Source: Candidatus Blackburnbacteria bacterium (GTDB taxonomy: Bacteria > Patescibacteriota > Microgenomatia > UBA8517 > UBA10165). From it: DNA of 64,000 nt. The stretch spans positions 422,479 through 486,478 of the forward strand of contig JACPEJ010000001.1 in NCBI GenBank assembly GCA_016183565.1. The letters are read 5' to 3'. Both the position numbers and the translations under genes were made by a program. The notes beneath the pieces are model-generated. The model saw nothing but the letters and a program-made list of their open reading frames with translations. It ran no database searches and had not been told where the DNA came from. Shown here piece after piece: positions 24,650-61,152 of this stretch (position 1 is the first letter of the stretch; every line of letters starts with the position of its first letter).

Positions 24650-24693
24650 ATCACCTTATAAAATCACCTTAGAGGTGGATTAGCTTGACACAT
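24650..24693. repeat. REP-like palindromic element flanking the 3' side of the transposase gene ('caccttagaggtgg' core plus 'attagcttgacac')
   Basis: The near-perfect palindrome 'ccacctNNNaggtgg' matches a dispersed family seen at 25405, 31404, 36373, 51590, 53920, 55551 and 61105. Confidence 0.6.
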
Positions 24694-24706
24694 CTGGTAA
24701 AACGTT

Positions 24707-25396
24707 TCATTCCAGGATCAGATGTTTAATTCTTTCTAATTGTCTTTGATAATCTGCTTGATCAAATATGAACTTTTTGAAGGTCTCTAAAGATTTGAAG
24801 TGAGCAAGGATAGTTTGAGTATCAATTGATTGATTTTCTTCTAAACCTAAGTATTTGCGGAGTGAGGAGTATTTGTAGGAGAGCAGGTCGTTAGTAGTCT
24901 TTACGATGTACGAGCTATAGGGATTTAGGTGGATGTATCTGGTGACATGAAGAAGCTGTTCCTCGCTTTCTATTCGCACAGCCTGAAATTTTCCTTTGAA
25001 TAGTGGTCCTTCTCTTTTGTTTTTGATATTGAAATAGCGAGTGTGGCTGTTTGTGATATTGGCTGTGTATTTGGCAGTGCCATTGTTTTCTGTCTGCTTG
25101 ATTAATAAATGGAAGTGGTTAGGCATCAGACAGTAGGCTACAATGTCCACAATAAATTGCTTTTTCTTGTTGAGGTAGTTTAGGATTTCTGACTTCTGTT
25201 CGGAGTGTAAAGTCGCAAGTTTAGATAGTCGGATTGGTATGTCTTTATTCTGGTAGTAGAACATTGTTTCAAGGAAACGGTTATAGTCTCTTTTTGTGTT
25301 AAAAGTTGGTTGTCCAGCAATGCCCTTGTTAAATATATGGTAAATTTCTCCGGTGACTAGGGGAATATCTCTTCCTGGCATTGTTCTATATTGCAC
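24707..25396 (-). CDS. IS200/IS605-family Y1 (HUH) transposase, REP-associated tyrosine transposase (RAYT)-like
   Basis: 'YCLMPNHFHLLIKQ' is the HUH motif of Transposase_17. At 229 aa the protein is larger than IS200 TnpA. The gene is flanked on both sides by REP-like palindromes. Confidence 0.8.
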   Translation of the reverse strand: MQYRTMPGRDIPLVTGEIYHIFNKGIAGQPTFNTKRDYNRFLETMFYYQNKDIPIRLSKLATLHSEQKSEILNYLNKKKQFIVDIVAYCLMPNHFHLLIKQTENNGTAKYTANITNSHTRYFNIKNKREGPLFKGKFQAVRIESEEQLLHVTRYIHLNPYSSYIVKTTNDLLSYKYSSLRKYLGLEENQSIDTQTILAHFKSLETFKKFIFDQADYQRQLERIKHLILE

Positions 25397-25404
25397 AAAA
25401 ATAC

Positions 25405-25438
25405 CAGAGGTGTCAATAGAGTTCCACCTTAGAGGTGT
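25405..25438. repeat. REP-like palindromic element flanking the 5' side of the transposase gene ('ccagaggtgtcaatagagttccaccttagaggtg')
   Basis: It has the same architecture as the elements at 31404-31461 and 36373-36410. Confidence 0.6.
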
Positions 25439-25507
25439 CTTTTTCTGACCAGATTTGCTGGGGTTGTAGCTTTGCTGTTAGCTTTGCTGAGGTGTTTTCT
25501 GGTATAG

Positions 25508-31389: not shown

Positions 31390-31403
31390 ATATTACTGCT
31401 TTT

Positions 31404-31461
31404 ACCGGAGGTGTCAATATAGATCCACCTCTAAGGTGGTTTGTCAAAGGTGGTTTGTCAC
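31404..31461. repeat. Compound REP-like element ('ccggaggtgtcaatatagatccacctctaaggtgg' plus a tandem 'tttgtcaaaggtgg' unit)
   Basis: Same family as the elements flanking the RAYT gene. Confidence 0.6.
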
Positions 31462-31529
31462 CGCAAGTGTTTCCGAGGTAAGGTGTTGAGTAATTGCTTC
31501 GTGTCCTCCCACGAAGTGTCCTATAATAC

Positions 31530-31939: not shown

Positions 31940-32234
31940 CCATCGCGCTGGGGGTGCTGTGAAGTAGCAGAGAATTCGATATCGATCGTTCTTAATCACT
32001 CTGCTTTTCCAGCATCCCCAGCCTACTTTTTCTTCTTTATTCTTCCTTAGTGTGGGATGAATTCTGCTATTACACTACAAACTACGAGCGGCCACTCCCG
32101 AGGTGTCTGTTCGAACGTGAAATGCAAAAGCGAATCATTATACTCATTATACTCCCCTATACCTTCCTTTCTTAAATTTGATACAATATGGATAGAATCT
32201 ATGGCTACTGTGACCTTCGATTTCACTTGGGGTC

Positions 32235-34718
32235 ATGGTGAGCAACAGTCGAACCATGCATACTTTAGAATTACGTCCTGATAGAAATTTTGAGGGGACG
32301 ACAGAGGCTTCTGCTCAAATCTTCTCGAGTTTAGCAAGCATCAAGTCCTCTTTTTTGAAAAAGCTGTTTGGGGAAGAAGAACCGATAGTTTTTGAAATCC
32401 TTTCGTTTGACCAAAAAACTCATTTTTTTGTGCATTTGCCTGAGGATATTGCTTCCTATGTGGAAAGCCAGATTGTTGCCCAGTATCCTAAGGTGAGTAT
32501 TTTGGGAACTTCGGATCCTTTGGTGTCAAGACTGGCGGGTAAGAAAGTTGCTTACTCGGGCTTAGGGCTTTCCGCAGCTTTCTACTATCCTTTGAAAACT
32601 TGGCGGGATTTTTCGGATTCTGATCCTTTGTCAGCGATTTTGGGTGCGATGGCAAAAGCTGAGAATGACGATATTTTGCTTGTGCAGATTGTTGTTTTGC
32701 CCGCTGGTTCGGGTTGGAGGAATGCTGGTTCAAGGGCAATTTCCCAGGGAATTGTTGGCAGTGATGGTTTGCCAAAGGCTCATCCCAAGGCAGCTTTAAT
32801 TGAGAGAAAACTTGCACAGAACGGTTTTCGTGTCGGGATAAGGCTTCTTGCCGCGTCGGCTGACGAAAAAAGAAGCAGACAGTTGGTTTCTTCACTTGCT
32901 GGTTCTTTTGGTGCTCTTACTTTGGGGGAAAGCAACAGTTTTTCTTTGTCCCAACCTCATTTTTATCAGCAAAAGAGTTATTTGGGTTCTATCATTGCAA
33001 GAACTGCTCGTTATGTCCCCTCTTCTCAATTTTTGACTGTTGATGAGTTGGCGACGATATTTCATTTGCCTTCCCTAGGGCTTTCGGGGATTAAAAATGT
33101 TTCCTGGGGTGGATCTCTTCTTGGAGAACCGCCGGATGATTTGCCGATTGCTATTGGTGCGACGGATGAAGAGCGGTCGAAAATTAATTTCTTGGCACGG
33201 ACTGAATTTAAGAATCAATTAATTGCTTTTGGTATTAAGAAAATAGATCGTAGGCGCCATGTTTATATAATTGGTAAGACTGGTACCGGAAAATCGACTC
33301 TTATTGCTAATATGGCGATAAATGACATGAGGAATGGGGAGGGGGTTGCTGTTGTTGATCCACATGGAGATTTGTCGGAAATTCTTCTTGATTACATACC
33401 TTCTTATCGAATTAATGATGTTGCTTATCTTGATGCTGCGTCTTCGGCTAAGAGGCCTTTTCGGATGAATCTTTTTGAGGTTAAAAATCCTGAGCATGGT
33501 GAGCTTGTTGCATCAGGAGTTGTTTCTATTTTCCAAAAACTTTATGGCTATTCTTGGGGGCCAAGGCTTGAGTATATCTTGAGAAACGCGATTTTGACTC
33601 TTGTTGCAAGACCTAATTCAACTTTGGTTGATGTGCCTCGAATTTTGACTGATCCTGGTTTTAGGAGGAGTGTTGTTGAGAATATCACTGACCCTGTTCT
33701 TAAAAATTTTTGGAGTGTAGAGTTTGAGCAGATGGGGGATCGTTTGCAAGCTGAGGCTATTTCACCAATTTTGAATAAGGTTGGGCAGTTTGTTTCTTCG
33801 CCAACAATTCGTGAGATTATTGGTTATCCGACTTCGACTATTGATCTTGAGGATGTGATGAATAACGGAAAGATTATTATTCTTAATCTTTCTCAGGGAC
33901 GACTTGGAGAAGACAATGCGGCGCTTCTCGGGGCATTGCTTATTACTAAGATACAGCTTGCTGCTATGAATAGGGCATCGATTCGTGAGGAGGAGAGGCG
34001 AGACTTTTATCTTTATGTTGATGAGTTCCAAAATTTTGCTACATCCAGTTTTATTAAGATTCTTTCTGAGGCGCGTAAGTATAGGTTGAATTTAACAGTT
34101 GCGAATCAGTATGCTGGGCAGGTTGCGGAGGATGTGCAAAAGGCTATTTTTGGTAATGTTGGGACATTAATTTCGTTTTTGGTTGGGGCGGAGGATGCAC
34201 AGATTTTGACTCGCGAGTTTGGGAGTACGTATAAAGAGGAAGATTTAGTTGGTTTGGATAATTTCCAAACGATTTTGAAACTTGCGATTGACGGGAAGAC
34301 CTCGCGGCCGTTTTTTGGTTATACACTTCCTTTGCCGAGAAGCAAGAATCAGAATAGGGAGAAGGTTGTGAGAGTTTCGCAGGAAAGGTATACGCGAGAG
34401 GCTGGGACGGGGTTTTTGGAACAGTACGCGCAGAGAGACGTAGGAAGAGATACAGATACAGGTACAGATAGGAGGAGAAATGAACGGCGGGGATCTTCGC
34501 GGCGTGATGGAGGAGGAAGTGACGAGGGAAGGCGTGGGCCGAGACGGGAACACGAGCGTGATATAGCGGTTGGTGTGCCCAGAAGAGATACAGGTACAGA
34601 TAAAGACAGGAGTGAGGAGGTTGTGGGGCAGAAGGTGGAAGTTAAAACTCCAGTGGTTGAGCAAAGCCAGGAGGATTCAAAAATACAAAAAGAGGGAACT
34701 GTTTACGAGGGGAAGTAG
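32235..34718 (+). CDS. FtsK-HerA superfamily P-loop ATPase (DUF87/HerA-like; distant TraG/VirB4-like). It has a ~330-aa N-terminal domain of unknown function and an Arg/Asp/Gly/Thr-rich C-terminal tail.
   Basis: Walker A 'IIGKTGTGKSTLIANM', 'VVDPHGDL', Walker B 'LYVDEFQNF', and 'SEARKYRLNLTVANQYAGQV' match HerA/DUF87 arrangements. The C-terminal tail 'RDTDTGTDRRRNERRGSSRRDGGG...RRDTGTDKDRSEE' includes GATACA-repeat codons. Confidence 0.6.
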   Translation: MVSNSRTMHTLELRPDRNFEGTTEASAQIFSSLASIKSSFLKKLFGEEEPIVFEILSFDQKTHFFVHLPEDIASYVESQIVAQYPKVSILGTSDPLVSRLAGKKVAYSGLGLSAAFYYPLKTWRDFSDSDPLSAILGAMAKAENDDILLVQIVVLPAGSGWRNAGSRAISQGIVGSDGLPKAHPKAALIERKLAQNGFRVGIRLLAASADEKRSRQLVSSLAGSFGALTLGESNSFSLSQPHFYQQKSYLGSIIARTARYVPSSQFLTVDELATIFHLPSLGLSGIKNVSWGGSLLGEPPDDLPIAIGATDEERSKINFLARTEFKNQLIAFGIKKIDRRRHVYIIGKTGTGKSTLIANMAINDMRNGEGVAVVDPHGDLSEILLDYIPSYRINDVAYLDAASSAKRPFRMNLFEVKNPEHGELVASGVVSIFQKLYGYSWGPRLEYILRNAILTLVARPNSTLVDVPRILTDPGFRRSVVENITDPVLKNFWSVEFEQMGDRLQAEAISPILNKVGQFVSSPTIREIIGYPTSTIDLEDVMNNGKIIILNLSQGRLGEDNAALLGALLITKIQLAAMNRASIREEERRDFYLYVDEFQNFATSSFIKILSEARKYRLNLTVANQYAGQVAEDVQKAIFGNVGTLISFLVGAEDAQILTREFGSTYKEEDLVGLDNFQTILKLAIDGKTSRPFFGYTLPLPRSKNQNREKVVRVSQERYTREAGTGFLEQYAQRDVGRDTDTGTDRRRNERRGSSRRDGGGSDEGRRGPRREHERDIAVGVPRRDTGTDKDRSEEVVGQKVEVKTPVVEQSQEDSKIQKEGTVYEGK

Positions 34719-34936
34719 ATAAGTAAACGGCCACCCCCGAGGTGCCCGCTTACTAGTAGGTTCACTACGACTACTGCCAATCCAGCTATACTTCCCGCGA
34801 CGAATCCATAGTTATTTCTCACCCTCCTTTACTCGTGATGTCAAGGTTCACCTGTAGTGTAGCATAGGGATAGATATAGATACAGTGTCGCTGTTACTGT
34901 GGAAGCTAGTTTTATGGTACAATTGCAGGGCTTGAT

Positions 34937-36352: not shown

Positions 36353-36372
36353 ATTGTTAAATGGGTTGTTTA

Positions 36373-36410
36373 CCGGAGGTGTCAATATAGTTCCACCTTA
36401 GAGGTGGTTT
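36373..36410. repeat. REP-like element 'ccggaggtgtcaatatagttccaccttagaggtgg'
   Basis: Near-identical to the element at 31404. Confidence 0.6.
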
Positions 36411-36446
36411 AGGTTGGCACTTTGGGGAAATAGAAAAAAATAGAAC

Positions 36447-37442: not shown

Positions 37443-38842
37443 TGCATTACTCAAAATACAAGGTGGCGATTGTTGGTTTTGGGGTTGAAGGACAGGATGC
37501 TGCTCGATACTTTTTGGGGCAAGAGAGCAAAAAGATAGTAGTGTTTGATAGAAATCCCGAAGAGAGTTTTAATACAGGGGAGTATGAGAAGAAAGGAGTT
37601 GAGTTTTTCTGCGGTCCGGATTATTTATCTTTGGGTTTGAAGGATTTTGATTACATTGTTCGTTCTCCGGGTGTGTATCGTTACTTGCCAGAAATTGTAG
37701 AAGCAGAAAGGAGTGGTGTTAAAATAATTTCAAACACTCAGCTTTTTTTTGAGGAATCGGAAGCAAATATAATTGGAATAACTGGGACAAAAGGTAAGGG
37801 TACAACAGCAAGGATGCTTGAGGCAGGATTGAAAAGTGCGGGGAAGAAAGTTTTGTTGTTAGGGAATATGGGGACACCGATGCTTGATAGAATTGATGAT
37901 GCGGATACTTTTGATTGGGTAATTTTGGAACTTTCTTCTTTTCAATTGATTGATCTTCCCTATAGTCCTCCGATTGCAATTGTTACAAATATTAAAACGG
38001 ACCATTTGAATTGGCACAAGGACAGAGAAGAATATATACACGCGAAAGAGAATCTTTGGAAGCATCAAAAATCTACTGATTATGTTGTGTTTAATAGAGA
38101 TGATGAGACCTGTCGGGAGTTTGGCAGGAGTGCTGTAGGAAGAGTGATATGGGTTGGGGAAGGGATAGATACAGATACAGATACAGATACAGAAAGAAAA
38201 AGAAAGGGTGGAGTATTTGTGGAAAATGGGGAGGTGGTTGTTCAAGTGAATGAAGTAGTGAATGTTGGCAAGGTTGCAGATTTAAAAGTACCGGGACAAC
38301 ACAATATTGCGAATGCTTTGGGTGCTTTGGTAGGTGGAGTGTTGGCAGGGGGAAATCCAAGTCAGGTTTGGGGGGGGATTTCATCTTTTGAGGGAGTCGA
38401 GCATAGATTAGAAAAAGTTGGAGAGATAGATGGTGTTGTTTATATTAACGATTCGGCAGCAACAACTTCTGAGGCAGCTATTGCTGCTTTGAGGACTTTT
38501 CCAAACCCTAAAGTACTTATTGCCGGTGGATCGCTAAAAGGCGTAGGATTTAAAACACTGGCTCAGGGGATTTTGGAAAATAATGTGAAGAGTGTGATTT
38601 TGATGGGGGAATCTGCGAAAGAGATACAGATACAGATAAAGAAACAGAAGATTAAAGAAGGGGGGAATCTGAAGATTATTAGGGGTATAGAGGAGATGGG
38701 AGAGATAGTTAAGAAGGCAAAGGAGTTGGCAAGGAGCGGTGATATTGTGCTTTTGTCGCCAGGGTGTGCATCGTTTGGACTTTTTAAAGATTATAAGGAT
38801 CGGGGAGATAAGTTTAAGGAAGTGGTGAGTAGGGAAGTATGA
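37442..38842 (+). CDS. murD: UDP-N-acetylmuramoylalanine--D-glutamate ligase
   Basis: 'KVAIVGFGVEGQDAARYF' and P-loop 'GITGTKGKGTTARML'. It contains in-frame (GATACA)n insertions at 38165-38191 (TDTDTDTE) and 38623-38640 (IQIQI). Confidence 0.9.
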   Translation: MHYSKYKVAIVGFGVEGQDAARYFLGQESKKIVVFDRNPEESFNTGEYEKKGVEFFCGPDYLSLGLKDFDYIVRSPGVYRYLPEIVEAERSGVKIISNTQLFFEESEANIIGITGTKGKGTTARMLEAGLKSAGKKVLLLGNMGTPMLDRIDDADTFDWVILELSSFQLIDLPYSPPIAIVTNIKTDHLNWHKDREEYIHAKENLWKHQKSTDYVVFNRDDETCREFGRSAVGRVIWVGEGIDTDTDTDTERKRKGGVFVENGEVVVQVNEVVNVGKVADLKVPGQHNIANALGALVGGVLAGGNPSQVWGGISSFEGVEHRLEKVGEIDGVVYINDSAATTSEAAIAALRTFPNPKVLIAGGSLKGVGFKTLAQGILENNVKSVILMGESAKEIQIQIKKQKIKEGGNLKIIRGIEEMGEIVKKAKELARSGDIVLLSPGCASFGLFKDYKDRGDKFKEVVSREV

Positions 38843-38905
38843 AGTATGAAGCGGCCACTCCCGAGGTGGACGCTGGACGCGGCGATTTTTAGGAAATAGT
38901 GGAAA

Positions 38906-42578: not shown

Positions 42579-43885
42579 TGCGACCAATCATAATCTCATT
42601 ATCGCCCAACACGGAAAGAGATGACGTACTCCTTGCTATCAAAGTTCTTTTCTCTCCATGGTTATGGTTTTCAAAAAGAAACATTCATCTTTTAGAAGAA
42701 AAGTTCCCAAAAATGTTTAGTGGTAATTACAAGTCGTTTGCGACAAATAGCGGACGCAGTGCTCTTTATCTTATCTTAAAAAGTTTAGGAGTTAAAAAGG
42801 ACGATGAGGTTTTATTACAAGCGTTTACTTGTATAGCAGTTCCTAATGCTATTTTGTGGGCTGGAGCTATTCCTGTTTATGTTGATATTGACGAGACTTA
42901 CAACATTGACCCTAAAGATTTAGAGAAAAAAATTACCAAAAAAACAAAAGCGATTATTGTTCAACATACGTTTGGGATTCTTGGGGATGTGGGAGCAATA
43001 AAACGGATTGCTAGAAAAAATAATCTTGTTCTTATAGAAGATTGTGCACATAGCCTGGGAGCTACTTTTAATGGGAAAAGGGTCGGTACTTTAGGCGATG
43101 TAGCATTTTTCAGTTTTGGACGGGATAAAATTTTGTCCTCTGTTTTTGGCGGAATGATACTTGTTAAGACACAGACACAGACAGAGATACAGATACAGAT
43201 ACAGAAGATGTTCAATACACTAAAGTGGCCAAATACACTTTGGGGAATACAACAGCTGTTGCATCCGATTGCGTTTTCTGTTATTTTGCCACTCTATAAT
43301 AGCGGGTTGGGTAAATTAATTTTACTTATACTTCAAAAGTTTCACTTTCTTTCACGCGCTGTGTGCGAAGAAGAAAAAAGAGGTGAACAACCAAAGACAT
43401 TTCCTTCCAGGATGCCACCTGCGTTGTCTGTTTTGGCAATTAAACAATTAACAAAACTTGAAAGGTTTAATCGGCATCGTAGGGAGATAGCTAAGCTCTA
43501 TTTTTCAAAGTTTGCTAATATAGTTAAGGTTTTACCGCCAGATGTGAGTGGTGCAGTTTGGTTGAGGTTTCCAATAAGTATAAACGATGCTTTCGGTTTA
43601 ATAAGTTATGCTAAGAGGCGAGGAATTCTGTTTGGTGATTGGTACAAGAGTGTGGTTATGCCAGCAGAGAACTTGAGTAAAGTTGGTTACACATTTGGTA
43701 CTTGTCCGAATGCAGAAAAATTGTCAAAAATGGTGGTAAATTTGCCGACATACCCGGGGATGAAGGTAGAAGAGGTACTAAAGGTAGTAGAAGTAGTACG
43801 GGAGTGGGAGGGGGAGGAAGGTAAAAGGGGTGGAAAGGGTAATAGGGGTAGTAGAGGAATGGATGGGGCAACAGAGGTAGTATGA
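42575..43885 (+). CDS. DegT/DnrJ/EryC1/StrS-family PLP-dependent aminotransferase
   Basis: 'SGRSALYLILKSLGV...EVLLQAFTCIAVPNAI...AIIVQHTFG' matches the fold-type I sugar aminotransferase family. There is an in-frame (GAYACA)n insertion (TQTQTEIQIQIQ) at 43169-43206 and a Gly/Arg-rich C-terminal tail. Confidence 0.7.
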   Translation: MMRPIIISLSPNTERDDVLLAIKVLFSPWLWFSKRNIHLLEEKFPKMFSGNYKSFATNSGRSALYLILKSLGVKKDDEVLLQAFTCIAVPNAILWAGAIPVYVDIDETYNIDPKDLEKKITKKTKAIIVQHTFGILGDVGAIKRIARKNNLVLIEDCAHSLGATFNGKRVGTLGDVAFFSFGRDKILSSVFGGMILVKTQTQTEIQIQIQKMFNTLKWPNTLWGIQQLLHPIAFSVILPLYNSGLGKLILLILQKFHFLSRAVCEEEKRGEQPKTFPSRMPPALSVLAIKQLTKLERFNRHRREIAKLYFSKFANIVKVLPPDVSGAVWLRFPISINDAFGLISYAKRRGILFGDWYKSVVMPAENLSKVGYTFGTCPNAEKLSKMVVNLPTYPGMKVEEVLKVVEVVREWEGEEGKRGGKGNRGSRGMDGATEVV

Positions 43886-50279: not shown

Positions 50280-50288
50280 CCCTTTTTC

Positions 50289-50325
50289 TCTTGACAAAGA
50301 GCCTTGTAGTTTGTGCTATAGTGTA
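50289..50325 (+). promoter_or_regulatory. Promoter/RBS module 'cttgacaaagag(c/t)cttgtagttt(g/a)tg(c/a)tatagtgtaag ... aaagctctttgaaaaggagg', duplicated at 59858-59929
   Basis: There is a near-identical 70-nt block at both locations. Confidence 0.5.
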
Positions 50326-50366
50326 AGTGGAGGTTCAATTAAAGCTCTTTGAAAAGGAGGTTGAGC

Positions 50367-50810
50367 GTGGACGCGGGTGTAGCTCTCCTGGTTGTTGGTA
50401 TTCTCCTGCTTGTTGTGGGTGGGTATCAACTGTTACCTCAAGCGCCGTTCGCAGCATACAGGCTTGCTGCAGCGGAGGGGTTTCTTCTTCTACTCGTAGG
50501 TTTGGGTGTAGTGGTTCAACAAAGGAGGATGGCTGTTGTGACAAAGGAAGGCGCTACTGGTTGGCTGGTTGTTGGTGTCATCCTTGCCTTGGTGGGAGTC
50601 CTGGTGTTTATATCACAAGGAGGTGCGGTCGGTGAGTGCCAGACGTTTTTCGGCCAACTTGGGAGAGCGTTGAGTGCTGAGGTTCAACAGCGCTGCAGTA
50701 CAGCAAACCTCCTCCGGACTGTCGGCGGAGTTGTAGCTGTCGGCGGTTTCATCGTCACCCTTGTAGGCATTGTGTGGCTAGCAGCTTCCAGTTCATTAAA
50801 AAGCGCATGA
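50367..50810 (+). CDS. Small polytopic membrane protein with an internal repeat (GTG start). It equals a fusion of the two ORFs at 60458-60688 and 60695-60976.
   Basis: Four Gly/Val/Leu-rich TM segments; the halves align to 'MGAMLLAVGIILLVVGGYQL' and 'VVVTKEGATGWLVVG...' of the second copy. An RBS 'aaaggagg' lies 6 nt upstream of the GTG. Confidence 0.55.
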   Translation: MDAGVALLVVGILLLVVGGYQLLPQAPFAAYRLAAAEGFLLLLVGLGVVVQQRRMAVVTKEGATGWLVVGVILALVGVLVFISQGGAVGECQTFFGQLGRALSAEVQQRCSTANLLRTVGGVVAVGGFIVTLVGIVWLAASSSLKSA

Positions 50811-51380: not shown

Positions 51381-51650
51381 CTTGACACAGAGTTACGTCA
51401 TCGCGTAAAACGAATCAGAATTTGTTTTCAACTGCGTATAAAATGTGTCGAGTGTTGGCGTGTTTGAGTGGCTACCTGTCTCGACTGGCCTGTCTCGTTT
51501 GGTGCAAGCCAAGGTGGACTCCCGAGGTGCAAACCTATTCCACCTCCCAGGTGGAAGATTGTAAGAGTGAGCTTGGTGGTGGGTCGTATACCAAAGGTGT
51601 CAAGCTAATCCACCTCTAAGGTGTCCAAAAGGTGTGCTTGATATACCTTC
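51381..51650. repeat. Cluster of compound REP-like palindromes: a 'cttgacacag...ctgtgtcaag' hairpin, 'gttggcgtg...cactcccgaggtgcaaac', 'attccacctcccaggtggaa', and 'ggtgtcaagctaatccacctctaaggtg'
   Basis: The same modules recur at 53807-53960, 57431-57550, 58664-58765, 59768-59812 and 61105-61152. Confidence 0.6.
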
Positions 51651-52168
51651 TTAAAAGCAAGTTTTGCCCGGTAGAGCCGTCCCTCTATTGCCTTCTCGCT
51701 AACACCCAAAAGCCTCGCTATTTTTTTTAGAGTGAGGTTTTCCCAATATCTGAGGTAAAGTAGTTGCTGCTTATTCGGTGGAAGCAAATTAAAGCATATT
51801 CTTACACTTGCCCTAAGTTCATCAAGTGCCAGTTTTTCCTCAAAAGATAAATCAGTCGTCCCAACTTGGGCAATTTTTTCCAAAACCGGAGCTACAACAA
51901 ACGAATTTTTGTTTACCTGACTTCTGTAATAATCAGCAGTTTTGTTTAATGCAATCCGGCACAACCAAGTAAAATAGCTGCTTTTATTTTTAAATGTATG
52001 CCAACCATGCCATGCCGAGGCCACAGTTTCTGCGAATACTTCCTCAGCAGCTGAGTAATCACCACCCATTTTTTTAAGCAAGAATTTCATTAACGGCAAA
52101 GCAAATTTTCTATACGCTGCTTCAAAATTTTCGTTCTCAAAAGTTTTGATCCGTGGGGTTTTGCTCAT
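51605..52168 (-). CDS. ECF (sigma-24 / RpoE-like) RNA polymerase sigma factor
   Basis: Region 2 'FAETVASAWHGWHTFKNKSSYFTWLCRIALNKTADYYR' and region 4 'LPPNKQQLLYLRYWENLTLKKIARLLGVSEKAIEGRLYRAKLAF'. Start trimmed to MSKTPRIK. Confidence 0.8.
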   Translation of the reverse strand: MSKTPRIKTFENENFEAAYRKFALPLMKFLLKKMGGDYSAAEEVFAETVASAWHGWHTFKNKSSYFTWLCRIALNKTADYYRSQVNKNSFVVAPVLEKIAQVGTTDLSFEEKLALDELRASVRICFNLLPPNKQQLLYLRYWENLTLKKIARLLGVSEKAIEGRLYRAKLAFKKVYQAHLLDTLEVD

Positions 52169-52208
52169 GTACACGACTAATAAAATAATGACAGACAACA
52201 AGTAGTAT

Positions 52209-52655
52209 ATGGTCATTTTAAGAAAAATTGCAATTACAAGTTCGGATACAGTCCCTGAATTTATTGACATAACAAATCGTGTTGAGGAAGAGGTGGGCAA
52301 AAGTGGCATAAAGATTGGGCAGGCTCTAATTTTTTCTCAGCATACGACTGCAGCAATTGTTATTCAAGAGCCAGAGCCAGGTGTACAAAAAGACTTGCAG
52401 GAATTACTTTCTAAAATAGCTCCTAAAAATGGGGACTATAAACATACGTTTGCTCCAGATCATATAAAAGACGGAATGCCAAATGCACACTCTCACTGCC
52501 AACATGCCTTACTTGGCGCATCGCAAACAATACCGATTGTTGATGGACAACTAATGCTTGGTCAGTACCAGAGGATATTTTTGGTAGAACTTGACCGCTC
52601 GCGGGTAAGATTTGTAATCATTCAGATCTTGGGAGATATGAAGCAGTCTTCTTAA
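52209..52655 (+). CDS. YjbQ/UPF0047-family protein (secondary thiamine-phosphate synthase-like)
   Basis: 'ITSSDTVPEFIDITNRV...ALIFSQHTTAAIVIQE...DGMPNAHSHCQHALLGASQTIPIVDGQLMLGQYQRIFLVELD' matches the UPF0047 pattern. Confidence 0.8.
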   Translation: MVILRKIAITSSDTVPEFIDITNRVEEEVGKSGIKIGQALIFSQHTTAAIVIQEPEPGVQKDLQELLSKIAPKNGDYKHTFAPDHIKDGMPNAHSHCQHALLGASQTIPIVDGQLMLGQYQRIFLVELDRSRVRFVIIQILGDMKQSS

Positions 52656-52670
52656 CAGACACAGCTAGAC

Positions 52671-52703
52671 ATAGCCTCGCAAGGTCTCACCTTGCGAGGC
52701 TAT
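52671..52703 (+). terminator. 14-bp perfect stem hairpin 'atagcctcgcaagg-tctca-ccttgcgaggctat'
   Basis: It lies immediately after the yjbQ stop. A related hairpin occurs at 57567-57594, with partial copies at 50921-50940 and 5370-5409. Confidence 0.5.
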
Positions 52704-52788
52704 GTGTATTAGTGTGTATTACAGTGTTAAATAGAATCACTCGGTCTTGACAGAGGGGTGGGGGTTGAATTGAATATTTGCGCTTCAA

Positions 52789-53014
52789 TGATATACTTCT
52801 ATCAGAAGACAGACGGGCTGTCTTTGAGTACTTTAACGTTAGTAGGAAGGGGGTGATGCCCAAAAGAGAGTTTGCCTCTTTTCCCTGCATTGGGCAGGAA
52901 GTGGTTGTGTTTGGTCTGAAAGATCCAGAGCTTGGAGAGAAGTCGACAGACTGGGCACAGCCAGAGGCCTTGGGTTAATAACCCTGTTCAACCTAGACTC
53001 AAGGAGTTAGGGAA
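52789..53014 (+). promoter_or_regulatory. Conserved ~225-nt 5' leader (copy 1). It starts with an extended -10 'tgatatact' and contains hairpins that vary compensatorily between copies.
   Basis: Paralogous leaders at 53985-54186, 55606-55845 and 57648-57875 share blocks 'ttgacgttag..ggaagg.ggtg.t.cccaa.agag...tctcttttcctgcattgggcaggaa.tgg...gtcgaca...gggttaa.aaccct'. Reading frames are not conserved between copies, so conservation is at the RNA level. Confidence 0.5.
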
Positions 53015-53293
53015 ATGTCTGACAGGGACAGTGATCGCTCGAGTGATCGGGACCGTGGTGGTGACCGGGACAGGGACCGTGGCCAGGAGAGAAGTGGAGA
53101 TATCTACGTGTCCGATATTACCGGTAACGCTGGTAACCAGGAAGGCACAACGTCATTTCGCGACGACGGGTCTTCCCACACCAGCGTACACGGAACAGGT
53201 GACAACTCCGGCTGGCATACCTCGTGGGGTACGTCGGATCGCCACAGCGACAGGCACCACACCAAGGACCACCAAGCCGACCGATACCTATAG
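53015..53293 (+). CDS. Small Asp/Arg/Ser/Gly-rich low-complexity protein (paralog family, copy 1)
   Basis: Protein begins 'MSDRDSDRSSDRDRGGDRDRDRG...'. RBS 'aaggag' lies 8 nt upstream. Differences from the 57876 paralog are mostly synonymous, arguing for real translation. Confidence 0.65.
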   Translation: MSDRDSDRSSDRDRGGDRDRDRGQERSGDIYVSDITGNAGNQEGTTSFRDDGSSHTSVHGTGDNSGWHTSWGTSDRHSDRHHTKDHQADRYL

Positions 53294-53319
53294 GTAGGTA
53301 GCTAGACCTGCAGATCCCA

Positions 53320-53365
53320 GAGGGAAGGAGAGCGTAACGCACCATCATTACAACCTCTCCTTCCC
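53320..53365 (+). other. Intergenic hairpin 'agggaaggagag...ctctccttcccc' (12-bp perfect stem) between the DR-rich gene and its helical partner gene
   Basis: Direct reading of the sequence. An analogous hairpin sits at 58204-58272 in the paralogous cassette. Confidence 0.45.
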
Positions 53366-53382
53366 CGACTTAATTTATTCTT

Positions 53383-53769: not shown

Positions 53770-53806
53770 AGGCATTAGCGGAAAGTAAGCAATTACCTTT
53801 TTCTTG

Positions 53807-53960
53807 CTTGATACAAAGTTACGTCATCGCGTAAAACAAATCAGAATTTGTTTTCAACTGCGTATAAAACTGTGTCAAGTGTTGGTGTGTTCGAGCGACC
53901 ACTCCCGAGGTGCCAACTTAATCCACCTCTAAGGTGTCCAGAAAAGGTGTCCAGAAATAT
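53807..53960. repeat. Compound REP-like cluster (same modules as 51381-51650)
   Basis: 'cttgatacaaagttacgtcatcgcgtaaaac...ctgtgtcaagtgttggtgtgttcgagcgaccactcccgaggtgccaacttaatccacctctaaggtgtccag'. Confidence 0.6.
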
Positions 53961-53984
53961 CGAATTACTTGGCCTTGACAGAAA

Positions 53985-54186
53985 TGATATACTTCTTTTA
54001 GAAGGCAGATGATCTGTCTTTGGGCACCTTGACGTTAGTCGGAAGGAGGTGGTACCCAAGAGAGATAGTGTCTCTTTTTCCTGCATTGGGCAGGAACTGG
54101 CTAGGTTTTAGGTTGAGGTCGACAACTTAGGGCTTAGTTGGTAATCCTAGGGTTAACAACCCTACTTGCCCCTTACGAGGTAGATA
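53985..54186 (+). promoter_or_regulatory. Conserved structured 5' leader (copy 2)
   Basis: See 52789-53014. Confidence 0.5.
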
Positions 54187-54495: not shown

Positions 54496-54617
54496 GTCAA
54501 GATCGCGCCGGATTACACTGTGTGATGGCTTGGGGGAGATTGGGATGTCCAATGTGGCCGTCGTACCGCCAAACGACACAAAAACCCAGTCTCCCCCTTC
54601 CACCAAAGATCACTTAG

Positions 54618-54637
54618 TTCACCTCTAAGGTGTCTGA
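54618..54637. repeat. REP-like core 'gttcacctctaaggtgtctg'
   Basis: Member of the dispersed family. Confidence 0.5.
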
Positions 54638-54638
54638 A

Positions 54639-55457
54639 TTAACTCCAAACAACATATCCGTGTGTGATTTTTACTTTATAGACTATGTCTTTAATTTGTT
54701 TTGTTAAAAATTCATATTCTAAATAATCATGACTTTTGCCTTCAATTTCCATGAAGGCGTATCCAACTCTTTTATTATTTTGTAAATATTGCTTGAGTTC
54801 ATCGGAGGAATAAACAGGATCGTTTTTATGTTGGATGTAAAGAGTATAAATGTTATATTTTTGGATCCAGTCATCCACAGCAAAATCATTTTTCCTTACC
54901 CCTCTAATTGGAGTTCCGACAAAAATACATTTGTCTGGTTTGATAGCCCCTTCAAATACTCCCCTCATAGTCAGTAAAGTGCCAGCAGACTTTGCAAAAA
55001 TAATATAGTTTTTCCTGTCTTTTACAAACTCGCTCAATTTATTTAATTCATAATCAAAATCTATTATCTCTTTTCCAGTTTCCCAATGTTTATAATAGTG
55101 AACATAAGTGTCTGGAAAAACTGGTTTTACTTTCTTTTCTATTTTCTCTATCCAACTTTTATTTTTTAGACTATTTCCTCCAAGTAAAATTATTGAAAAT
55201 CTCTTGTCTGGATATTTTGCCTTTTCGTATTTTTTGATAATTCTTTCTACATAATCTGTCTCAGGAACATTTGGAAACTTATCAACTATCTCAAGAGGCA
55301 TAAGATAACGATAATATTTATCACCTTCGTCAATAATAAGTCCCCACCCCCTACCAAAAACATTTACTTTCTTTCTAATTTGCAAAGCCCATTCATAAAC
55401 CTTTTTAAGAGGAACTCTTTTTAATTTTCCAATTTGACCAACTGTTAAAAGTTTCAT
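54639..55457 (-). CDS. Hypothetical protein, possible alpha/beta-hydrolase-like. The gene is AT-rich (Lys-rich) and may be cargo.
   Basis: 272 aa. 'IIFAKSAGTLLTMRG' (G/A-x-S-x-G-like) and a C-terminal 'KSHDY' suggest a serine hydrolase. Codon usage is much more AT-rich than the flanking DR-rich genes. Confidence 0.4.
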   Translation of the reverse strand: MKLLTVGQIGKLKRVPLKKVYEWALQIRKKVNVFGRGWGLIIDEGDKYYRYLMPLEIVDKFPNVPETDYVERIIKKYEKAKYPDKRFSIILLGGNSLKNKSWIEKIEKKVKPVFPDTYVHYYKHWETGKEIIDFDYELNKLSEFVKDRKNYIIFAKSAGTLLTMRGVFEGAIKPDKCIFVGTPIRGVRKNDFAVDDWIQKYNIYTLYIQHKNDPVYSSDELKQYLQNNKRVGYAFMEIEGKSHDYLEYEFLTKQIKDIVYKVKITHGYVVWS

Positions 55458-55550
55458 ATCGTCAAATAGGCAGGCGTCGGACTTGGACCGCCACTTTAAG
55501 AAAGGCTCTTTTTCACCTGCCTATTTGCATTTTAATACAAATTCACAAGT

Positions 55551-55600
55551 ATGCCAACCTAATCCACCTCTAAGGTGTCTAGACCTCTAAGGTGTCTAGA
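55551..55600. repeat. Tandem REP-like cores 'aatccacctctaaggtgtctagacctctaaggtgtctag'
   Basis: Direct reading of the sequence. Confidence 0.55.
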
Positions 55601-55605
55601 TAATA

Positions 55606-57430: not shown

Positions 57431-57550
57431 TTGACACAAAGTTATGCGATGACATAGAACTGTGTCAAGTGTTGGCGTGTTCGAGCGGCCACTCCCGAGG
57501 TGCAAACGTATTCCACCTCCCAGGTGGAAGATTCACAGGTGGAAGATTTT
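57431..57550. repeat. Compound REP-like cluster
   Basis: 'tttgacacaaagttatgcgatgacatagaactgtgtcaagtgttggcgtgttcgagcggccactcccgaggtgcaaacgtattccacctcccaggtggaagattcacaggtggaagatt'. Confidence 0.6.
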
Positions 57551-58664: not shown

Positions 58665-58765
58665 TTGACACAGAGTTACGTTATCGCGTAAAACTATGTC
58701 AAGTGTTGGTGTGTTCGAGCGGCCACTCCCGAGGTGCCAACGTATTCCACCTCCCAGGTGGAATT
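58664..58765. repeat. Compound REP-like cluster
   Basis: 'ttgacacagagttacgttatcgcgtaaaactatgtcaagtgttggtgtgttcgagcggccactcccgaggtgccaacgtattccacctcccaggtggaa'. Confidence 0.6.
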
Positions 58766-59624: not shown

Positions 59625-59767
59625 TAGCCAATTATACCATTGTTAAGTCGAAGCTGGCAGTCCTTGTACAGTATCAGAGTTTCGTTGACGTTAGGTAAGT
59701 TGGACTGTGACTTGTTTGCAAGTATCCGGTCTCCAATTATTTGCTGCGGTGTTCTGCCCTTCATTCC

Positions 59768-59812
59768 ATTATACCGGAGGTGCCAACGTATTTCACCTCC
59801 CAGGTGGAAAAT
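59768..59812. repeat. REP-like element 'ccggaggtgccaacgtatttcacctcccaggtggaaaatc'
   Basis: Same family. Confidence 0.55.
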
Positions 59813-61072: not shown

Positions 61073-61104
61073 TAAATTTTATAGAACCTACTGCACTCTT
61101 ACTA

Positions 61105-61152
61105 AAGGTGTCAAGCTATAATCCACCTCTAAGGTGTTTAAAAGGTGTCTGA
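61105..61152. repeat. REP-like element 'aaaggtgtcaagctataatccacctctaaggtgtttaaaaggtgtctg'
   Basis: Near-identical to the element at 51590-51640. Confidence 0.6.

What the first reader, a model, noticed from the sequence alone, without database searches (positions are those of the whole stretch)
24650..25438. RAYT-like HUH transposase flanked by REP-like palindromes, with the same palindrome family dispersed at gene ends across the window
The 229-aa minus-strand gene carries 'YCLMPNHFHLL', the Transposase_17 HUH motif. It is bounded by 'caccttagaggtgg'-containing elements at 24650-24693 and 25405-25438. The palindrome 'ccacct-NNN-aggtgg', with extended flanks 'ggtgtcaagcta(a/t)aatccacctctaaggtg' or 'ccggaggtgtcaatataga.tccacct.ta.aggtgg', recurs at 31404, 36373, 51590, 53920, 54618, 55551 and 61105. 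A second module, 'cactcccgaggtg' plus 'attccacctcccaggtggaa', recurs at 32084, 34727, 38848, 51500, 53895, 57481, 58720 and 59768. Most copies sit just after stop codons. This is the classic REP/BIME-RAYT arrangement. Here the REPs are also the junctions of the amplified DR-rich cassettes, so they may mediate that amplification.
Basis: partly seen in the sequence, partly recalled or inferred. Interest (0 to 1): 0.6.

Follow-up and report, generated by a model that had tools for sequence, protein, structure and literature searches.

The report
Tyrosine transposase gene with dispersed hairpin repeats
A candidate-phyla-radiation bacterium (Candidatus Blackburnbacteria) carries one gene for a RAYT-like single-strand-DNA transposase, bracketed by a ~42-base hairpin repeat that is also scattered between genes; this is a known kind of system, but I found no report of it in this group, where the gene-repeat pairing is conserved across many lineages.

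Summary
The ORF at 24707-25396(-), probably a 224-aa gene ending at 25381, is a Y1 HUH transposase (Pfam Y1_Tnp above cut-off; NHFH and YIHLNP motifs). It is bracketed by inverted ~42-nt repeats, each made of an AGGTG half-site, a YCAA spacer and a CACCT-NNN-AGGTG hairpin. The core palindrome occurs 13 times in the window against 0.06 expected, and 12 of 13 copies share one orientation.

The gene-repeat pairing is conserved. In a sample of homologs chosen by protein alone, 53 of 73 have the same-stem hairpin on both flanks, and the stem changes between lineages by compensatory substitutions. Solo copies are about 74% intergenic and do not sit at orthologous positions.

The interpretation needs correcting. 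This is not the classic E. coli REP/BIME-RAYT system:
- The motifs match class 2 subclass 2.1 (Bertels Group 1, the "TIRYT" type), which was reported as not REP-associated.
- There is no GT[AG]G guide, and REPIN or BIME doublets are almost absent.
- Copy density elsewhere is modest.
- The "second module" is a related hairpin type, not a separate element.
- A role in cassette amplification is not shown.

Verdict: a real REPtron/TIRtron-type system, and a new member of a known kind in a phylum where I found no earlier report. Mobilisation by the enzyme is inferred, not demonstrated.

The parts
24707..25381 (-). Y1 HUH tyrosine transposase-like gene (224 aa; the mechanical ORF extends to a GVG start at 25396). 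It has the HUH motif NHFH, the catalytic-Tyr motif RYIHLNPY, and a C-terminal helical tail with a conserved Y..SS.
25400..25440 (+). Upstream (5') terminal repeat of the gene, read on the + strand as ACCAGAGGTGTCAA-TAGAGT-TCCACCT-TAG-AGGTG. On the gene strand the hairpin is distal and TTGACACCT is proximal.
25388..25416 (-). Putative promoter of the gene. The -35 box TTGACA (25416-25411) lies inside the repeat. A 17-nt spacer follows, then the -10-like CAATAT (25393-25388), which ends 6 nt before the ATG at 25381. There is no Shine-Dalgarno motif, so the mRNA is probably leaderless.
   Evidence: Read. The same geometry is seen in 55 of 78 homolog loci, and only 1 of 80 has an SD-like motif. 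Inference; no transcript data.
24663..24703 (-). Downstream (3') terminal repeat of the gene, inverted relative to the upstream one (ACCAGATGTGTCAAGCTAATCCACCT-CTA-AGGTG on the - strand). The outer half-stem and adjacent bases are tandemly duplicated (AGGTGATTTTAYR x2, reaching about 24650).
31398..31441 (+). Dispersed solo copy, starting 12 nt after the stop codon of the PBP/FtsI-like gene. It is followed by an outer tandem duplication (AGGTGGTTTGTCA x2, to about 31463).
36369..36431 (.). Two-armed ('double-foot') copy between the Mur ligase and MurB genes, with one arm on each side of a single shared hairpin. It is the only copy with a significant ssDNA fold (-10.2 kcal/mol, z = -3.7).
51517..51555 (+). 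Dispersed copy, CCC-loop subtype (8-bp stem TTCCACCT/AGGTGGAA).
51585..51625 (+). Dispersed copy, CTA-loop subtype, 70 nt downstream of the previous copy in direct orientation. It overlaps the last codons and the stop codon of the minus-strand sigma-70-family gene 51605..52309.
53896..53949 (+). Composite copy: type-II motif CCACTCCCGAGGTG, spacer, then a CTA-loop hairpin. A perfect 13-nt outer tandem duplication follows (AGGTGTCCAGAAA x2).
54598..54635 (+). Degenerate copy (left arm decayed, hairpin intact), 4 nt from the stop codon of the minus-strand gene 54639..55457.
55546..55600 (+). Copy with a decayed left arm, followed by a 17-nt tandem duplication of loop, 3' half-stem and flank. Its TTGGCA on the minus strand is followed after 17 nt by TAAAAT, facing the gene 54639..55457(-).
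   Evidence: (D3). The promoter reading is my inspection only.
57488..57545 (+). Composite copy: type-II motif, then a CCC-loop hairpin, then an outer tandem duplication (AGGTGGAAGATT x2).
58721..58763 (+). Composite copy: type-II motif followed by a CCC-loop hairpin. The ~100-nt conserved unit it terminates begins right after the stop codon at 58664.
   Evidence: (D5)
59767..59808 (+). Dispersed copy, CCC-loop subtype, between divergent gene starts.
61095..61148 (+). Dispersed copy, CTA-loop subtype, with a partial outer duplication. It lies 21 nt from the 3' end of the minus-strand methyltransferase gene.
32092..32105 (+). Solo type-II motif CCACTCCCGAGGTG (a degenerate hairpin).
34731..34744 (+). 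Solo type-II motif CCACCCCCGAGGTG, 13 nt after the stop codon at 34718.
38855..38868 (+). Solo type-II motif CCACTCCCGAGGTG, 13 nt after the MurD stop codon at 38842.

Best explanation
This is a REPtron/TIRtron-type system. A probably single-copy class-2 (TnpA-REP/RAYT-like, subclass-2.1-type) Y1 HUH tyrosine transposase gene is bracketed by inverted copies of its cognate ~42-nt repeat. Each repeat consists of an AGGTG half-site, a YCAA-N5-7 spacer and a short CACCT-NNN-AGGTG hairpin. Solo copies of the same unit are scattered as non-autonomous elements in intergenic DNA.

Shown: the protein fold and catalytic motifs; the bracketing; the dispersal; the intergenic bias; conservation of the gene-repeat pairing across Microgenomates; compensatory evolution of the hairpin in step on both flanks.

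Inferred from IS608/ISDra2 TnpA and E. coli TnpA-REP biochemistry: the enzyme binds the hairpin on single-stranded DNA, for example on the lagging-strand template. It cleaves next to it through a 5'-phosphotyrosine intermediate and rejoins the ends, so copying or moving the repeat in trans while the gene itself stays put.

Also inferred: the upstream repeat supplies the -35 box of the gene's promoter, and the mRNA is leaderless. Enzyme binding to that repeat could then autoregulate expression.
For: Protein:
- Pfam Y1_Tnp scores 33.9 bits against a cut-off of 23.
- The best NCBIfam hit is REP_Tyr_transpos, at 50.8 bits.
- H89, H91, Y149 and N153 are invariant in 34 homologs.
- The AF2 model has pLDDT 79. 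Its best PDB match is 4ER8, E. coli TnpA-REP bound to a REP hairpin (E 2.5e-4), ahead of ISDra2, IS608 and IS200 TnpA.

Repeat:
- 13 copies against 0.06 expected.
- Conservation has sharp boundaries, identical for solo and gene-flanking copies.

Pairing with the gene:
- 35 of 111 pattern-selected loci from other Microgenomates have a homolog (42-65% identity) directly next to the repeat.
- In a protein-selected sample, 53 of 73 homologs have the same-stem hairpin on both flanks.
- Stem variants are CACCT, CAACC, CACAC and CCACAT.
- Formal covariation: 87% of cells paired against 74% in shuffles; 62 double-sided changes against 24; 0 of 500 shuffles reach either value; 6 of 8 pairs show compensatory changes.

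Behaviour unlike an IS:
- One gene against 11 solo copies in this window.
- No near-identical second gene copy in about 412 kb around homologs; extra copies are 32-46% paralogs.
- The same synteny (RecO-gene-GlyRS) in five lineages at 50-57% identity, each with a diverged hairpin.

Solo copies:
- 74% intergenic, against about 11% non-coding sequence.
- Not at positions orthologous to those in the window.
- 12 of 13 share one orientation on the G-rich strand.

Promoter geometry is conserved.
Against: - No activity data exist, and no insertion polymorphism could be observed. Every strain-level contig retrieved is 100% identical to the window.
- Away from this window the repeat is only moderately abundant: 13 solo copies in 412 kb around homologs.
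- The hairpins are thermodynamically weak, and most are no better than shuffled sequence.
- The NCBIfam RAYT equivalog cut-off is not reached.
- Subclass 2.1 has been reported not to be REP-associated (PMC6006769).
- The gene's neighbourhood differs in most other genomes, so the gene-plus-repeats unit may itself move occasionally.
- The orientation bias is confounded with transcription direction.
Confidence: 0.75

Rival explanations
1. An autonomous IS200/IS605-like insertion sequence. The gene plus its two end repeats is the mobile unit, and the solo repeats are remnants of decayed or excised copies.
For: The gene is bracketed by terminal repeats with subterminal hairpins, and its promoter lies in one end, as in many IS elements. 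The gene's neighbourhood differs in most genomes sampled. Some contigs carry two family members.
Against: - The Y motif is Y-x3-NP (class 2), not the Y-x3-Q of IS200 transposases (PMC6006769).
- The protein is 224 aa with a conserved tail, against about 150 aa for IS200 TnpA.
- There is no tnpB partner.
- No near-identical gene copies occur in about 412 kb; co-resident copies are 32-46% paralogs with their own hairpin types.
- The window has 11 solo repeats for one gene.
- Five lineages keep the gene in the same RecO-GlyRS slot.
- The end repeats are inverted, whereas IS200/IS605 ends carry their hairpins on one strand.
Confidence: 0.1
2. A host cis-element (terminator, promoter or protein-binding site) kept by selection, which also happens to flank the transposase-like gene. 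Dispersal would then reflect function, not mobilisation.
For: The ~30-nt core is conserved across many candidate phyla of Microgenomates, which is unusual for REPs. Many copies start 0-30 nt after a co-oriented stop codon. The unit contains a consensus -35 box that appears to drive the Y1 gene, and possibly the gene 54639..55457(-).
Against: - Solo copies are not at orthologous positions between genomes.
- The hairpins are weak and have no T-tract.
- Orientation relative to the neighbouring genes is mixed in other genomes: 37 co-oriented against 19 opposed.
- The hairpin variant tracks the variant flanking the resident Y1 gene.
- The upstream hairpin lies 5' of the -35 box, so it is outside the gene's own transcript.
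- Exaptation of some copies is compatible with the main explanation and does not compete with it.
Confidence: 0.1
3. The repeats drive duplication and shuffling of the Asp/Arg-rich gene cassettes in 50-62 kb.
For: Nine of the 11 solo copies lie in 51.5-61.2 kb, where GC skew collapses. Several homology blocks begin or end exactly at the hairpin: 53864-53936 with 57454-57526, 57431-57529 with 58665-58763, and 53911-54157 with 55552-55780.
Against: Other cassette boundaries have no repeat, for example the leader copy starting at 52787, and 50284 paired with 59850. Blocks that end at a mobile repeat are expected from independent insertions into a region that tolerates them. No polymorphic arrangement was available to compare.
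Confidence: 0.2

Closest known systems
TIRtron / TIRYT (Di Nocera et al. 2013, PMC3733652), equivalent to TnpA-Y1 subclass 2.1 (Quentin et al. 2018, PMC6006769) and Group 1 RAYT (Bertels et al. 2017, PMC5581495)
   Same: - The protein is about 225-240 aa with NH[YF]H, FQ (in place of WQ) and Y[IV]HLNP motifs and an 'SS' tail (compared with Table 1 of PMC6006769).
- The gene is flanked by terminal inverted repeats that include a self-complementary tract.
- The repeats also form a moderately abundant dispersed family.
- Copy number of the gene is low, and paralogs are diverged.
   Different: - The GGGGWSAS motif shared by many described TIRs is absent.
- Subclass 2.1 was reported to have no REP-like structures nearby, whereas here a covarying hairpin is the core of the repeat.
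- No HTH or DnaA_C-like tail domain was detected by Pfam.
- The host is a roughly 1 Mb CPR genome, while these genes were reported to be enriched in large genomes.
- The assignment rests on motifs and length, not on a phylogeny.
E. coli REPtron: TnpA-REP (RAYT, subclass 2.2 / Group 2, PDB 4ER8) with REP/BIME
   Same: - It is the best structural match of the model.
- It shares the class-2 Y-x3-NP motif.
- The gene is single-copy and flanked by inverted copies of a dispersed extragenic palindrome.
   Different: - No GT[AG]G guide at the hairpin foot.
- A 5-8 bp stem with a 3-nt loop, instead of a long bulged stem.
- Almost no BIME or REPIN doublets.
- The repeat is bipartite (half-site plus hairpin).
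- The protein is 60 aa longer, and sequence similarity is marginal (profile E = 0.09).
- The repeat sequence is conserved across many candidate phyla, whereas REPs are described as species-specific (PMC6006769).
IS200/IS605 family (IS608, ISDra2) TnpA
   Same: The Y1 HUH fold, recognition of short DNA hairpins at element ends, and a strong orientation bias of the kind expected from single-strand (lagging-strand template) transposition.
   Different: The Y motif is Y-x3-Q in IS200 but Y-x3-NP here. IS200 TnpA is about 150 aa. IS200 elements occur as multiple near-identical copies, often with tnpB. None of these is seen here.
REPIN-RAYT systems of Pseudomonas (Group 3 / subclass 2.5)
   Same: A vertically inherited single gene with a co-evolving family of short repeats. 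Different paralogs in one genome each have their own repeat type.
   Different: The replicating unit in Pseudomonas is an inverted REP doublet present in hundreds of copies. Here the copies are mostly singletons, and density around homologs is about 0.3 per 10 kb.

Membership tests
Y1 HUH transposase superfamily (Pfam PF01797 Y1_Tnp) | A match to the family profile above the curated cut-off | tested here: met
   33.9 bits against a cut-off of 23, E = 3.8e-8. All listed homologs carry PF01797.
Y1 HUH transposase superfamily | An HUH metal-binding motif and a catalytic Tyr on a following helix | tested here: met
   H89-F-H91 and Y149 are invariant in 34 homologs. The fold matches 4ER8, 2XM3 and 2A6M.
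Class 2 TnpA-Y1 (TnpA-REP / RAYT-like), Quentin 2018 | Y motif Y-x3-NP, in contrast to the Y-x3-Q of IS200 class 1 | tested here: met
   RYIHLNPY, with Y149, N153 and P154 invariant. The signature is taken from PMC6006769.
Subclass 2.1 / Group 1 RAYT / TIRYT | Median length about 238 aa; NH[YF]H; FQ replacing WQ; Y[IV]HLNP; a proximal tail with conserved SS | tested here: met
   224 aa; NHFH; family consensus PLFQGKF (this protein has FK); YIHLNP; Y169, S172 and S173 invariant (compared with Table 1 read). This is a motif-level test only; no phylogeny with reference members was possible.
Subclass 2.1 / TIRYT | A C-terminal HTH (Bac_DnaA_C, HTH_23 or HTH_28-like) domain, and the TIR motif GGGGWSAS | tested here: not met
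   No Pfam hit other than Y1_Tnp at E <= 0.01. The flanking repeats contain no GGGGWSAS. Both features are described as frequent, not universal (PMC6006769, PMC3733652).
NCBIfam NF047646 REP_Tyr_transpos (equivalog) | A score at or above the curated cut-off of 80 bits | tested here: not met
   50.8 bits, E = 1.6e-13. It is the best-scoring family but falls below the cut-off.
REPtron (RAYT with its cognate REPs) | The gene is flanked by copies of the repeat in inverted orientation | tested here: met
   Window copies at 24663-24703(-) and 25400-25440(+). 53 of 73 protein-selected homologs have the same-stem hairpin on both flanks.
REPtron | The same repeat is dispersed in many copies, mainly extragenic | tested here: met
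   13 copies against 0.06 expected in the window. 60 of 81 solo copies in other genomes are intergenic, against about 11% non-coding sequence. 13 solo copies occur in 412 kb around homologs, against about 0.4 expected by my own estimate. The genome-wide copy number could not be obtained.
REPtron | The gene is single-copy per genome, or present only as diverged paralogs each with its own repeat type | tested here: inconclusive
   There is one copy in the 64 kb window, and all contigs encoding the identical protein show a single context. No near-identical second copy occurs in 412 kb; co-resident paralogs are 32-46% identical.
Canonical REP (Quentin 2018; Di Nocera 2013) | A 5' GT[AG]G tetranucleotide at the foot of the hairpin | tested here: not met
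   The bases 5' of the stem are TA(A/T)T(C/T). The outer side of the hairpin is not conserved.
REPIN / BIME | The repeat occurs as inverted doublets that form a long hairpin | tested here: not met
   Only 1 of the 11 solo copies is two-armed (36369-36431). The others are singletons, or direct tandems such as 51517 and 51585.
IS200/IS605 insertion sequence | Several near-identical copies per genome, a transposase of about 150 aa, and often a tnpB partner | tested here: not met
RAYT / TnpA-REP function | Sequence- and structure-specific binding, cleavage and rejoining of single-stranded repeat DNA | not testable with these tools
   Needs biochemistry.

The most novel reading that the evidence does not exclude
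One bipartite hairpin repeat and its Y1 enzyme may have co-evolved as a vertically inherited partnership across the whole Microgenomates radiation. In one lineage the gene has stayed in the same RecO-GlyRS slot. This would have happened in genomes of about 1 Mb, where such genes were thought to be rare. The repeat would be recognised through AGGTG half-sites plus a hairpin rather than a GTAG guide. The host would use it, as the gene's own promoter and as break-points in a variable cassette region. That would make this a distinct, functionally integrated variant of the REP-RAYT idea rather than just another member.
Probability: 0.2. Interest if true: 0.7.

Novelty: new member of a known kind. 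Interest (0 to 1): 0.45.

Why it matters
RAYT/REP-type systems have been characterised mainly in Proteobacteria, Cyanobacteria and Bacteroidetes, and were reported to be enriched in large genomes. In this case:
- A subclass-2.1-type enzyme, from a group reported to lack REPs, is tied to a covarying hairpin repeat.
- The pairing is conserved over a very deep radiation, in ultra-small CPR genomes.
- The repeat supplies what looks like the gene's promoter.

This gives a compact substrate (a ~42-nt DNA and a 224-aa protein) for testing how non-GTAG repeats are recognised. It also offers a marker repeat for studying genome plasticity in uncultivated Microgenomates. On the practical side, these repeats break short-read assemblies: contigs end at them.

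Tried and rejected
- Rfam (gathering thresholds) and tRNA/tmRNA scans of the whole window found nothing, so no known RNA family explains the repeats.
- A single-sequence search against PDB sequences gave no meaningful hit. Only the profile and the fold search reached Y1 enzymes.
- Thermodynamics: most copies fold no better than shuffled sequence as ssDNA. The case for the hairpin therefore rests on covariation, not on energy.
Per-genome counts are only lower bounds, and no tile from the source genome was returned.
- Strain polymorphism: five contigs from other samples are 100% identical to the window. The contig covering the cassette region is only 1.6 kb. Repeat-bounded indels could not be tested.
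- I first concluded that the gene's neighbourhood is not conserved. The protein-selected sample corrected this: five loci share the RecO-gene-GlyRS synteny.
- Plasmid and phage collections hold only remote relatives at 26-36% identity. These collections contain little or no CPR DNA, so this says little.
- Chance, or a Shine-Dalgarno-related motif (GGAGGTG), as the source of the enrichment is rejected. The conserved unit spans about 42 nt with fixed architecture, and occurs 13 times against 0.06 expected.
Full report
1. WHAT IS IN THE SEQUENCE

The minus-strand ORF 24707..25396 (229 aa) is real and contains YCLMPNHFHLL. Public assemblies call the gene from the internal Met (24707..25381, 224 aa). 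That product is 100% identical to a 'transposase' of Candidatus Blackburnbacteria found on a 686 kb contig. Three other contigs that encode it show the same context: DUF4012, RecO, a 65-aa ORF, the gene, then GlyRS.

The palindrome CACCTNNNAGGTG occurs 13 times in the window against 0.06 expected. Two of these copies bracket the gene, at 24665 and 25425. An nhmmer profile of the 13 copies finds no more. There are none in the first 24.6 kb, and nine lie in 51.5-61.2 kb.

2. THE PROTEIN

- It passes Pfam Y1_Tnp (33.9 bits against a cut-off of 23).
- Its best NCBIfam family is REP_Tyr_transpos, but below the equivalog cut-off (50.8 bits against 80).
- An alignment of 34 homologs keeps H89-F-H91 (HUH), Y149 with N153 and P154 (RYIHLNPY), a PLFQGKF motif, and Y169, S172 and S173 in the tail.
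- A profile search of PDB sequences reaches ISDra2 TnpA (E = 0.015) and E. coli TnpA-REP 4ER8 (E = 0.09) only marginally.
- The AlphaFold model (pLDDT 79, pTM 0.79) has 4ER8, the REP-associated tyrosine transposase bound to a REP hairpin, as its best PDB match (E = 2.5e-4, TM 0.57 on the target). ISDra2, IS608 and IS200 transposases follow.

Against the published classification (Quentin 2018, PMC6006769, Table 1, read), the Y-x3-NP motif places the protein in class 2 (TnpA-REP-like) and excludes IS200 class 1 (Y-x3-Q). The combination of NH[YF]H, FQ, Y[IV]HLNP, an SS tail and a length near 238 aa is the signature of subclass 2.1. That subclass equals Bertels' Group 1 and largely overlaps the 'TIRYT' proteins of Di Nocera 2013 (PMC3733652). 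This assignment rests on motifs, not on a phylogeny.

3. THE REPEAT

Aligning the copies gives a unit of about 42 nt: (A)AA(T)ACC-nn-AGGTG-YCAA-N5-7-TY-CACCT-NNN-AGGTG-G(aa). Across 88 solo and 39 gene-adjacent copies from other genomes, conservation starts about 8 nt before the first AGGTG. It stops 2-3 nt after the hairpin, with nothing conserved beyond, and the boundaries are the same for both classes.

The unit is bipartite. A left 'half-site' (nnAGGTG) repeats the loop and 3' half-stem, and a complete short hairpin follows after a spacer.

It stands alone at 32092, 34731 and 38855. It is itself a degenerate hairpin. It is also exactly the hairpin that flanks the orthologous gene in sister lineages (L181 and L187).

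One copy (36369-36431) has an arm on each side of a single hairpin, and it is the only one with a significant ssDNA fold (-10.2 kcal/mol, z = -3.7). The other copies are weak, at -3.3 to -9.6 kcal/mol and not distinguishable from shuffles.

4. THE GENE-REPEAT PAIRING IS CONSERVED AND CO-EVOLVES

Those whose record titles name a lineage are almost all Microgenomates or Patescibacteria MAGs: Levy-, Davies-, Gottesman-, Woese-, Curtiss-, Chisholm- and Shapirobacteria. In 35 of them a homolog of the protein (42-65% identity) lies directly next to the repeat.

Read on the gene strand, every case has the same layout:
- Upstream: hairpin, GAAnnCTA, TTGACACCTnnGGTA, about 25 nt, then ATG.
- Downstream: stop, (T)ACCARAGGTGnC...TC, then hairpin.

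Because that scan fixed the stem sequence, I drew a second sample by the protein alone: 80 metagenome loci. Of 73 with enough flanking DNA, 56 have a hairpin of at least 5 bp with a 3-nt loop on both sides, and 53 have the same stem on both sides. The stems are CACCT (45), CACAC (4), CAACC (3) and CCACAT (1).

I then aligned the upstream regions, defined only by their distance from the ATG, and scored an 8-bp stem:
- 87% of cells pair, against 74% in shuffles.
- There are 62 double-sided changes, against 24 in shuffles.
- The covariation score is 0.32, against 0.13 in shuffles.
- 0 of 500 shuffles reach any of these three values.
- All slid registers score lower.
- 6 of 8 pairs show compensatory changes.

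So the hairpin is under structural constraint, and it changes in step on both flanks of a given gene. The upstream hairpin lies 5' of the -35 box, which argues for recognition at the DNA level rather than in the gene's own mRNA.

5. THE GENE BEHAVES LIKE A RESIDENT GENE, THE REPEAT LIKE A MOBILE ONE

The window has one gene and 11 solo repeats. In about 412 kb around homologs there is no near-identical second gene copy; the three extra hits are 32-46% paralogs. One contig has two paralogs, each with its own hairpin type.

Five protein-selected loci (50-57% identity) keep the gene in the same slot as here: DUF4012, RecO, gene, GlyRS, MraZ, MraW, FtsI. Their hairpins have diverged. Most other homologs sit in different neighbourhoods, so either paralogous lineages exist or the unit moves occasionally.

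Solo copies in other genomes are 74% intergenic by a crude gene caller that assigns 89% of the sequence as coding. They often start 0-30 nt after a co-oriented stop codon, and they are not next to orthologs of the genes that flank the window's copies.

Around homologs, solo copies of the locus's own hairpin number 13 in 412 kb. My own estimate of the chance expectation is about 0.4, for ten specified bases. That is about 0.3 per 10 kb, against about 1.7 per 10 kb in this window.

In the window, 12 of 13 copies have the arm-to-hairpin reading on the + strand. That strand is strongly G-rich (GC skew +0.22 to +0.33 over 1-52 kb) and carries most genes. The bias fits single-strand, replication-coupled insertion, but it is confounded with transcription direction.

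6. PROMOTER

In 55 of 78 homolog loci an exact TTGACA lies in the upstream repeat, usually 34-40 nt before the ATG. A -10-like hexamer (at least 4 of 6 matches in 47 of the 55) follows after 16-18 nt and most often ends 6-7 nt before the ATG. Only 1 of 80 loci has a Shine-Dalgarno-like motif.

In the window the layout is TTGACA (25416-25411), 17 nt, CAATAT, 6 nt, then ATG at 25381. I infer a leaderless mRNA driven from a promoter whose -35 box lies inside the repeat. That arrangement would let the enzyme regulate itself. There is no transcript evidence.

7. THE 50-62 KB REGION

This region holds paralogous cassettes. Each has a conserved ~230-nt leader, a small Asp/Arg-rich ORF, a small helical ORF, and a ~100-nt unit that begins with a promoter-like TTGACA-N17-TAAAAC and ends in the type-II and type-I hairpins. 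The proteins have no Pfam family. The neighbours are a sigma-70-family protein, a UPF0047 protein and a methyltransferase.

Several homology blocks start or stop exactly at the hairpin, and others do not. This is compatible with repeat-mediated shuffling. It is equally compatible with repeated insertion of a mobile unit into a permissive, variable region. The evidence does not separate the two.

8. LIKELY MECHANISM

By analogy with IS608/ISDra2 TnpA and E. coli TnpA-REP (established biochemistry; my knowledge, and PMC6006769, PMC8266576), I infer the following. The enzyme recognises the folded hairpin together with adjacent single-stranded bases. It cuts through Tyr149 with metal bound by H89, H91 and N153, and it rejoins the ends, mobilising the ~42-nt unit in trans.

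Two unexplained details may be footprints of that chemistry:
- The outer half-stem plus the following 5-16 nt is tandemly duplicated in 13 of 119 copies elsewhere, against 0.6% at control AGGTG sites, and in 6 of 13 copies here.
- The loop is identical, rather than reverse-complementary, on the two flanks in 34 loci against 15. Loop orientation is therefore uncoupled from arm orientation, as if both hairpins were read on the same strand.

9. COMPARISON AND NOVELTY

The system works like a REPtron, but it is not the canonical E. coli type. It has no GT[AG]G guide, no BIMEs or REPINs, a short stem and a bipartite unit.

The best-fitting named category is the TIRtron/TIRYT of Di Nocera 2013, which is subclass 2.1. 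Its authors already noted that some terminal repeats are self-complementary and belong to dispersed families. Quentin 2018, however, found no REP-like structures for that subclass, and found that non-IS family members favour large genomes.

Full-text searches found no paper linking RAYT, REP or IS200-type repeats with Patescibacteria, CPR or Microgenomates. I therefore class this as a new member of a known kind. Two less ordinary aspects stand out: conservation of one repeat core across a very deep radiation, and its presence in ~1 Mb genomes.

10. LIMITS

- There are no functional data and no insertion polymorphism.
- The genome-wide count was not obtainable.
- Gene calling for the intergenic statistics was crude.
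- The subclass assignment is at motif level only.
- Some MAG titles ('uncultured Gammaproteobacteria', one 'Omnitrophota') are probably placeholders or binning errors, and I did not check them.

Noticed in passing
window 52787-53015, 53983-54186, 55605-55846, 57647-57875: A conserved ~230-nt leader (…GATATACTTC…TTGACGTT…GGAAGGAGGTG.TACCCAAGAGA…CTGTCTCTTTTTCCTGCATTGGGCAGGAA…) precedes each small Asp/Arg-rich ORF. It is 75-89% identical between copies and has no Rfam match. It could be a cis-regulatory RNA or a shared promoter/5'UTR.
   Followed up: no
window 51381-51410, 53807-53836, 57431-57460, 58665-58694: A promoter-like TTGACA-N17-TAAAAC heads a ~100-nt conserved unit that ends in the type-II and type-I hairpins. 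The unit starts immediately after the stop codons of small helical ORFs. It could be a small transcript or a composite repeat.
   Followed up: partly
window 24650-24680, 31434-31463, 53932-53957, 55565-55600, 57522-57548, 61132-61150; also loci L006, L032, L042, L068, L081, L095, L098: The outer half-stem (AGGTG) plus the next 5-16 nt is tandemly duplicated just outside the hairpin. This occurs in 13 of 119 copies in other genomes, against 0.6% at control AGGTG sites. It may be a footprint of cleavage and rejoining, or of slippage at the hairpin.
   Followed up: partly
protein-selected loci L118-L197, and window 24665 and 25425: On the gene strand, the 3-nt loops of the upstream and downstream hairpins are identical in 34 loci and reverse-complementary in 15, although the arms are inverted. 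In oriented solo copies CCC loops occur 26 times and GGG never. Loop orientation is therefore uncoupled from arm orientation.
   Followed up: partly
loci L127, L178, L181, L185, L187: The Y1 gene keeps the same chromosomal slot (DUF4012-RecO-gene-GlyRS-MraZ-MraW-FtsI) at only 50-57% protein identity. The flanking hairpins differ between these loci (CACACCTCTAAGGTGTG, CCCACTTCGGGAGTGG, CAACACCGGGTGTTG).
   Followed up: partly
window 1-52000 against 52000-64000: GC skew is unusually strong (+0.22 to +0.33) and nearly all genes are co-oriented up to about 52 kb. The skew then collapses to 0.03-0.16 where gene orientation is mixed and the repeats cluster. A published Microgenomates genome reports similar strand disparity (PMC7143001; title only, not read).
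   Followed up: no
window 34442-34621, 38155-38208, 38610-38663, 43155-43220: GATACA-type hexamer repeats lie inside coding regions. In the MurD-like gene they encode low-complexity inserts, (DT)n at 38167 and (IQ)n at 38622. Similar runs occur in two other genes.
   Followed up: partly
window 52676-52702 and 57577-57603: A strong G+C-rich hairpin (GCCTCGCAAGGTCTCACCTTGCGAGGC) is repeated at two cassette ends. It looks like a terminator and is unrelated to the transposase-associated repeat.
   Followed up: no
window 50284-50361 with 59850-59929, and 50523-50792 with 60689-60958: Paralogous small membrane-protein genes, with an 89%-identical promoter/5' region, lie 9.6-10.2 kb apart and bracket the repeat-rich region.
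   Followed up: no
locus L033 2945-3026; locus L053 1505-5831: Local clusters of the core palindrome occur in other genomes: four in tandem about 22-25 nt apart in a Microgenomates MAG, and eight within 4.3 kb in a Chisholmbacteria MAG. Repeat-dense regions like 50-62 kb here may be common.
   Followed up: no
window 55546-55577 (minus strand) and gene 54639-55457(-): On the minus strand the repeat's TTGGCA is followed after 17 nt by TAAAAT, facing the start of the gene 54639..55457(-). This is the same configuration as upstream of the Y1 gene, so a solo copy may act as a promoter here.
   Followed up: no
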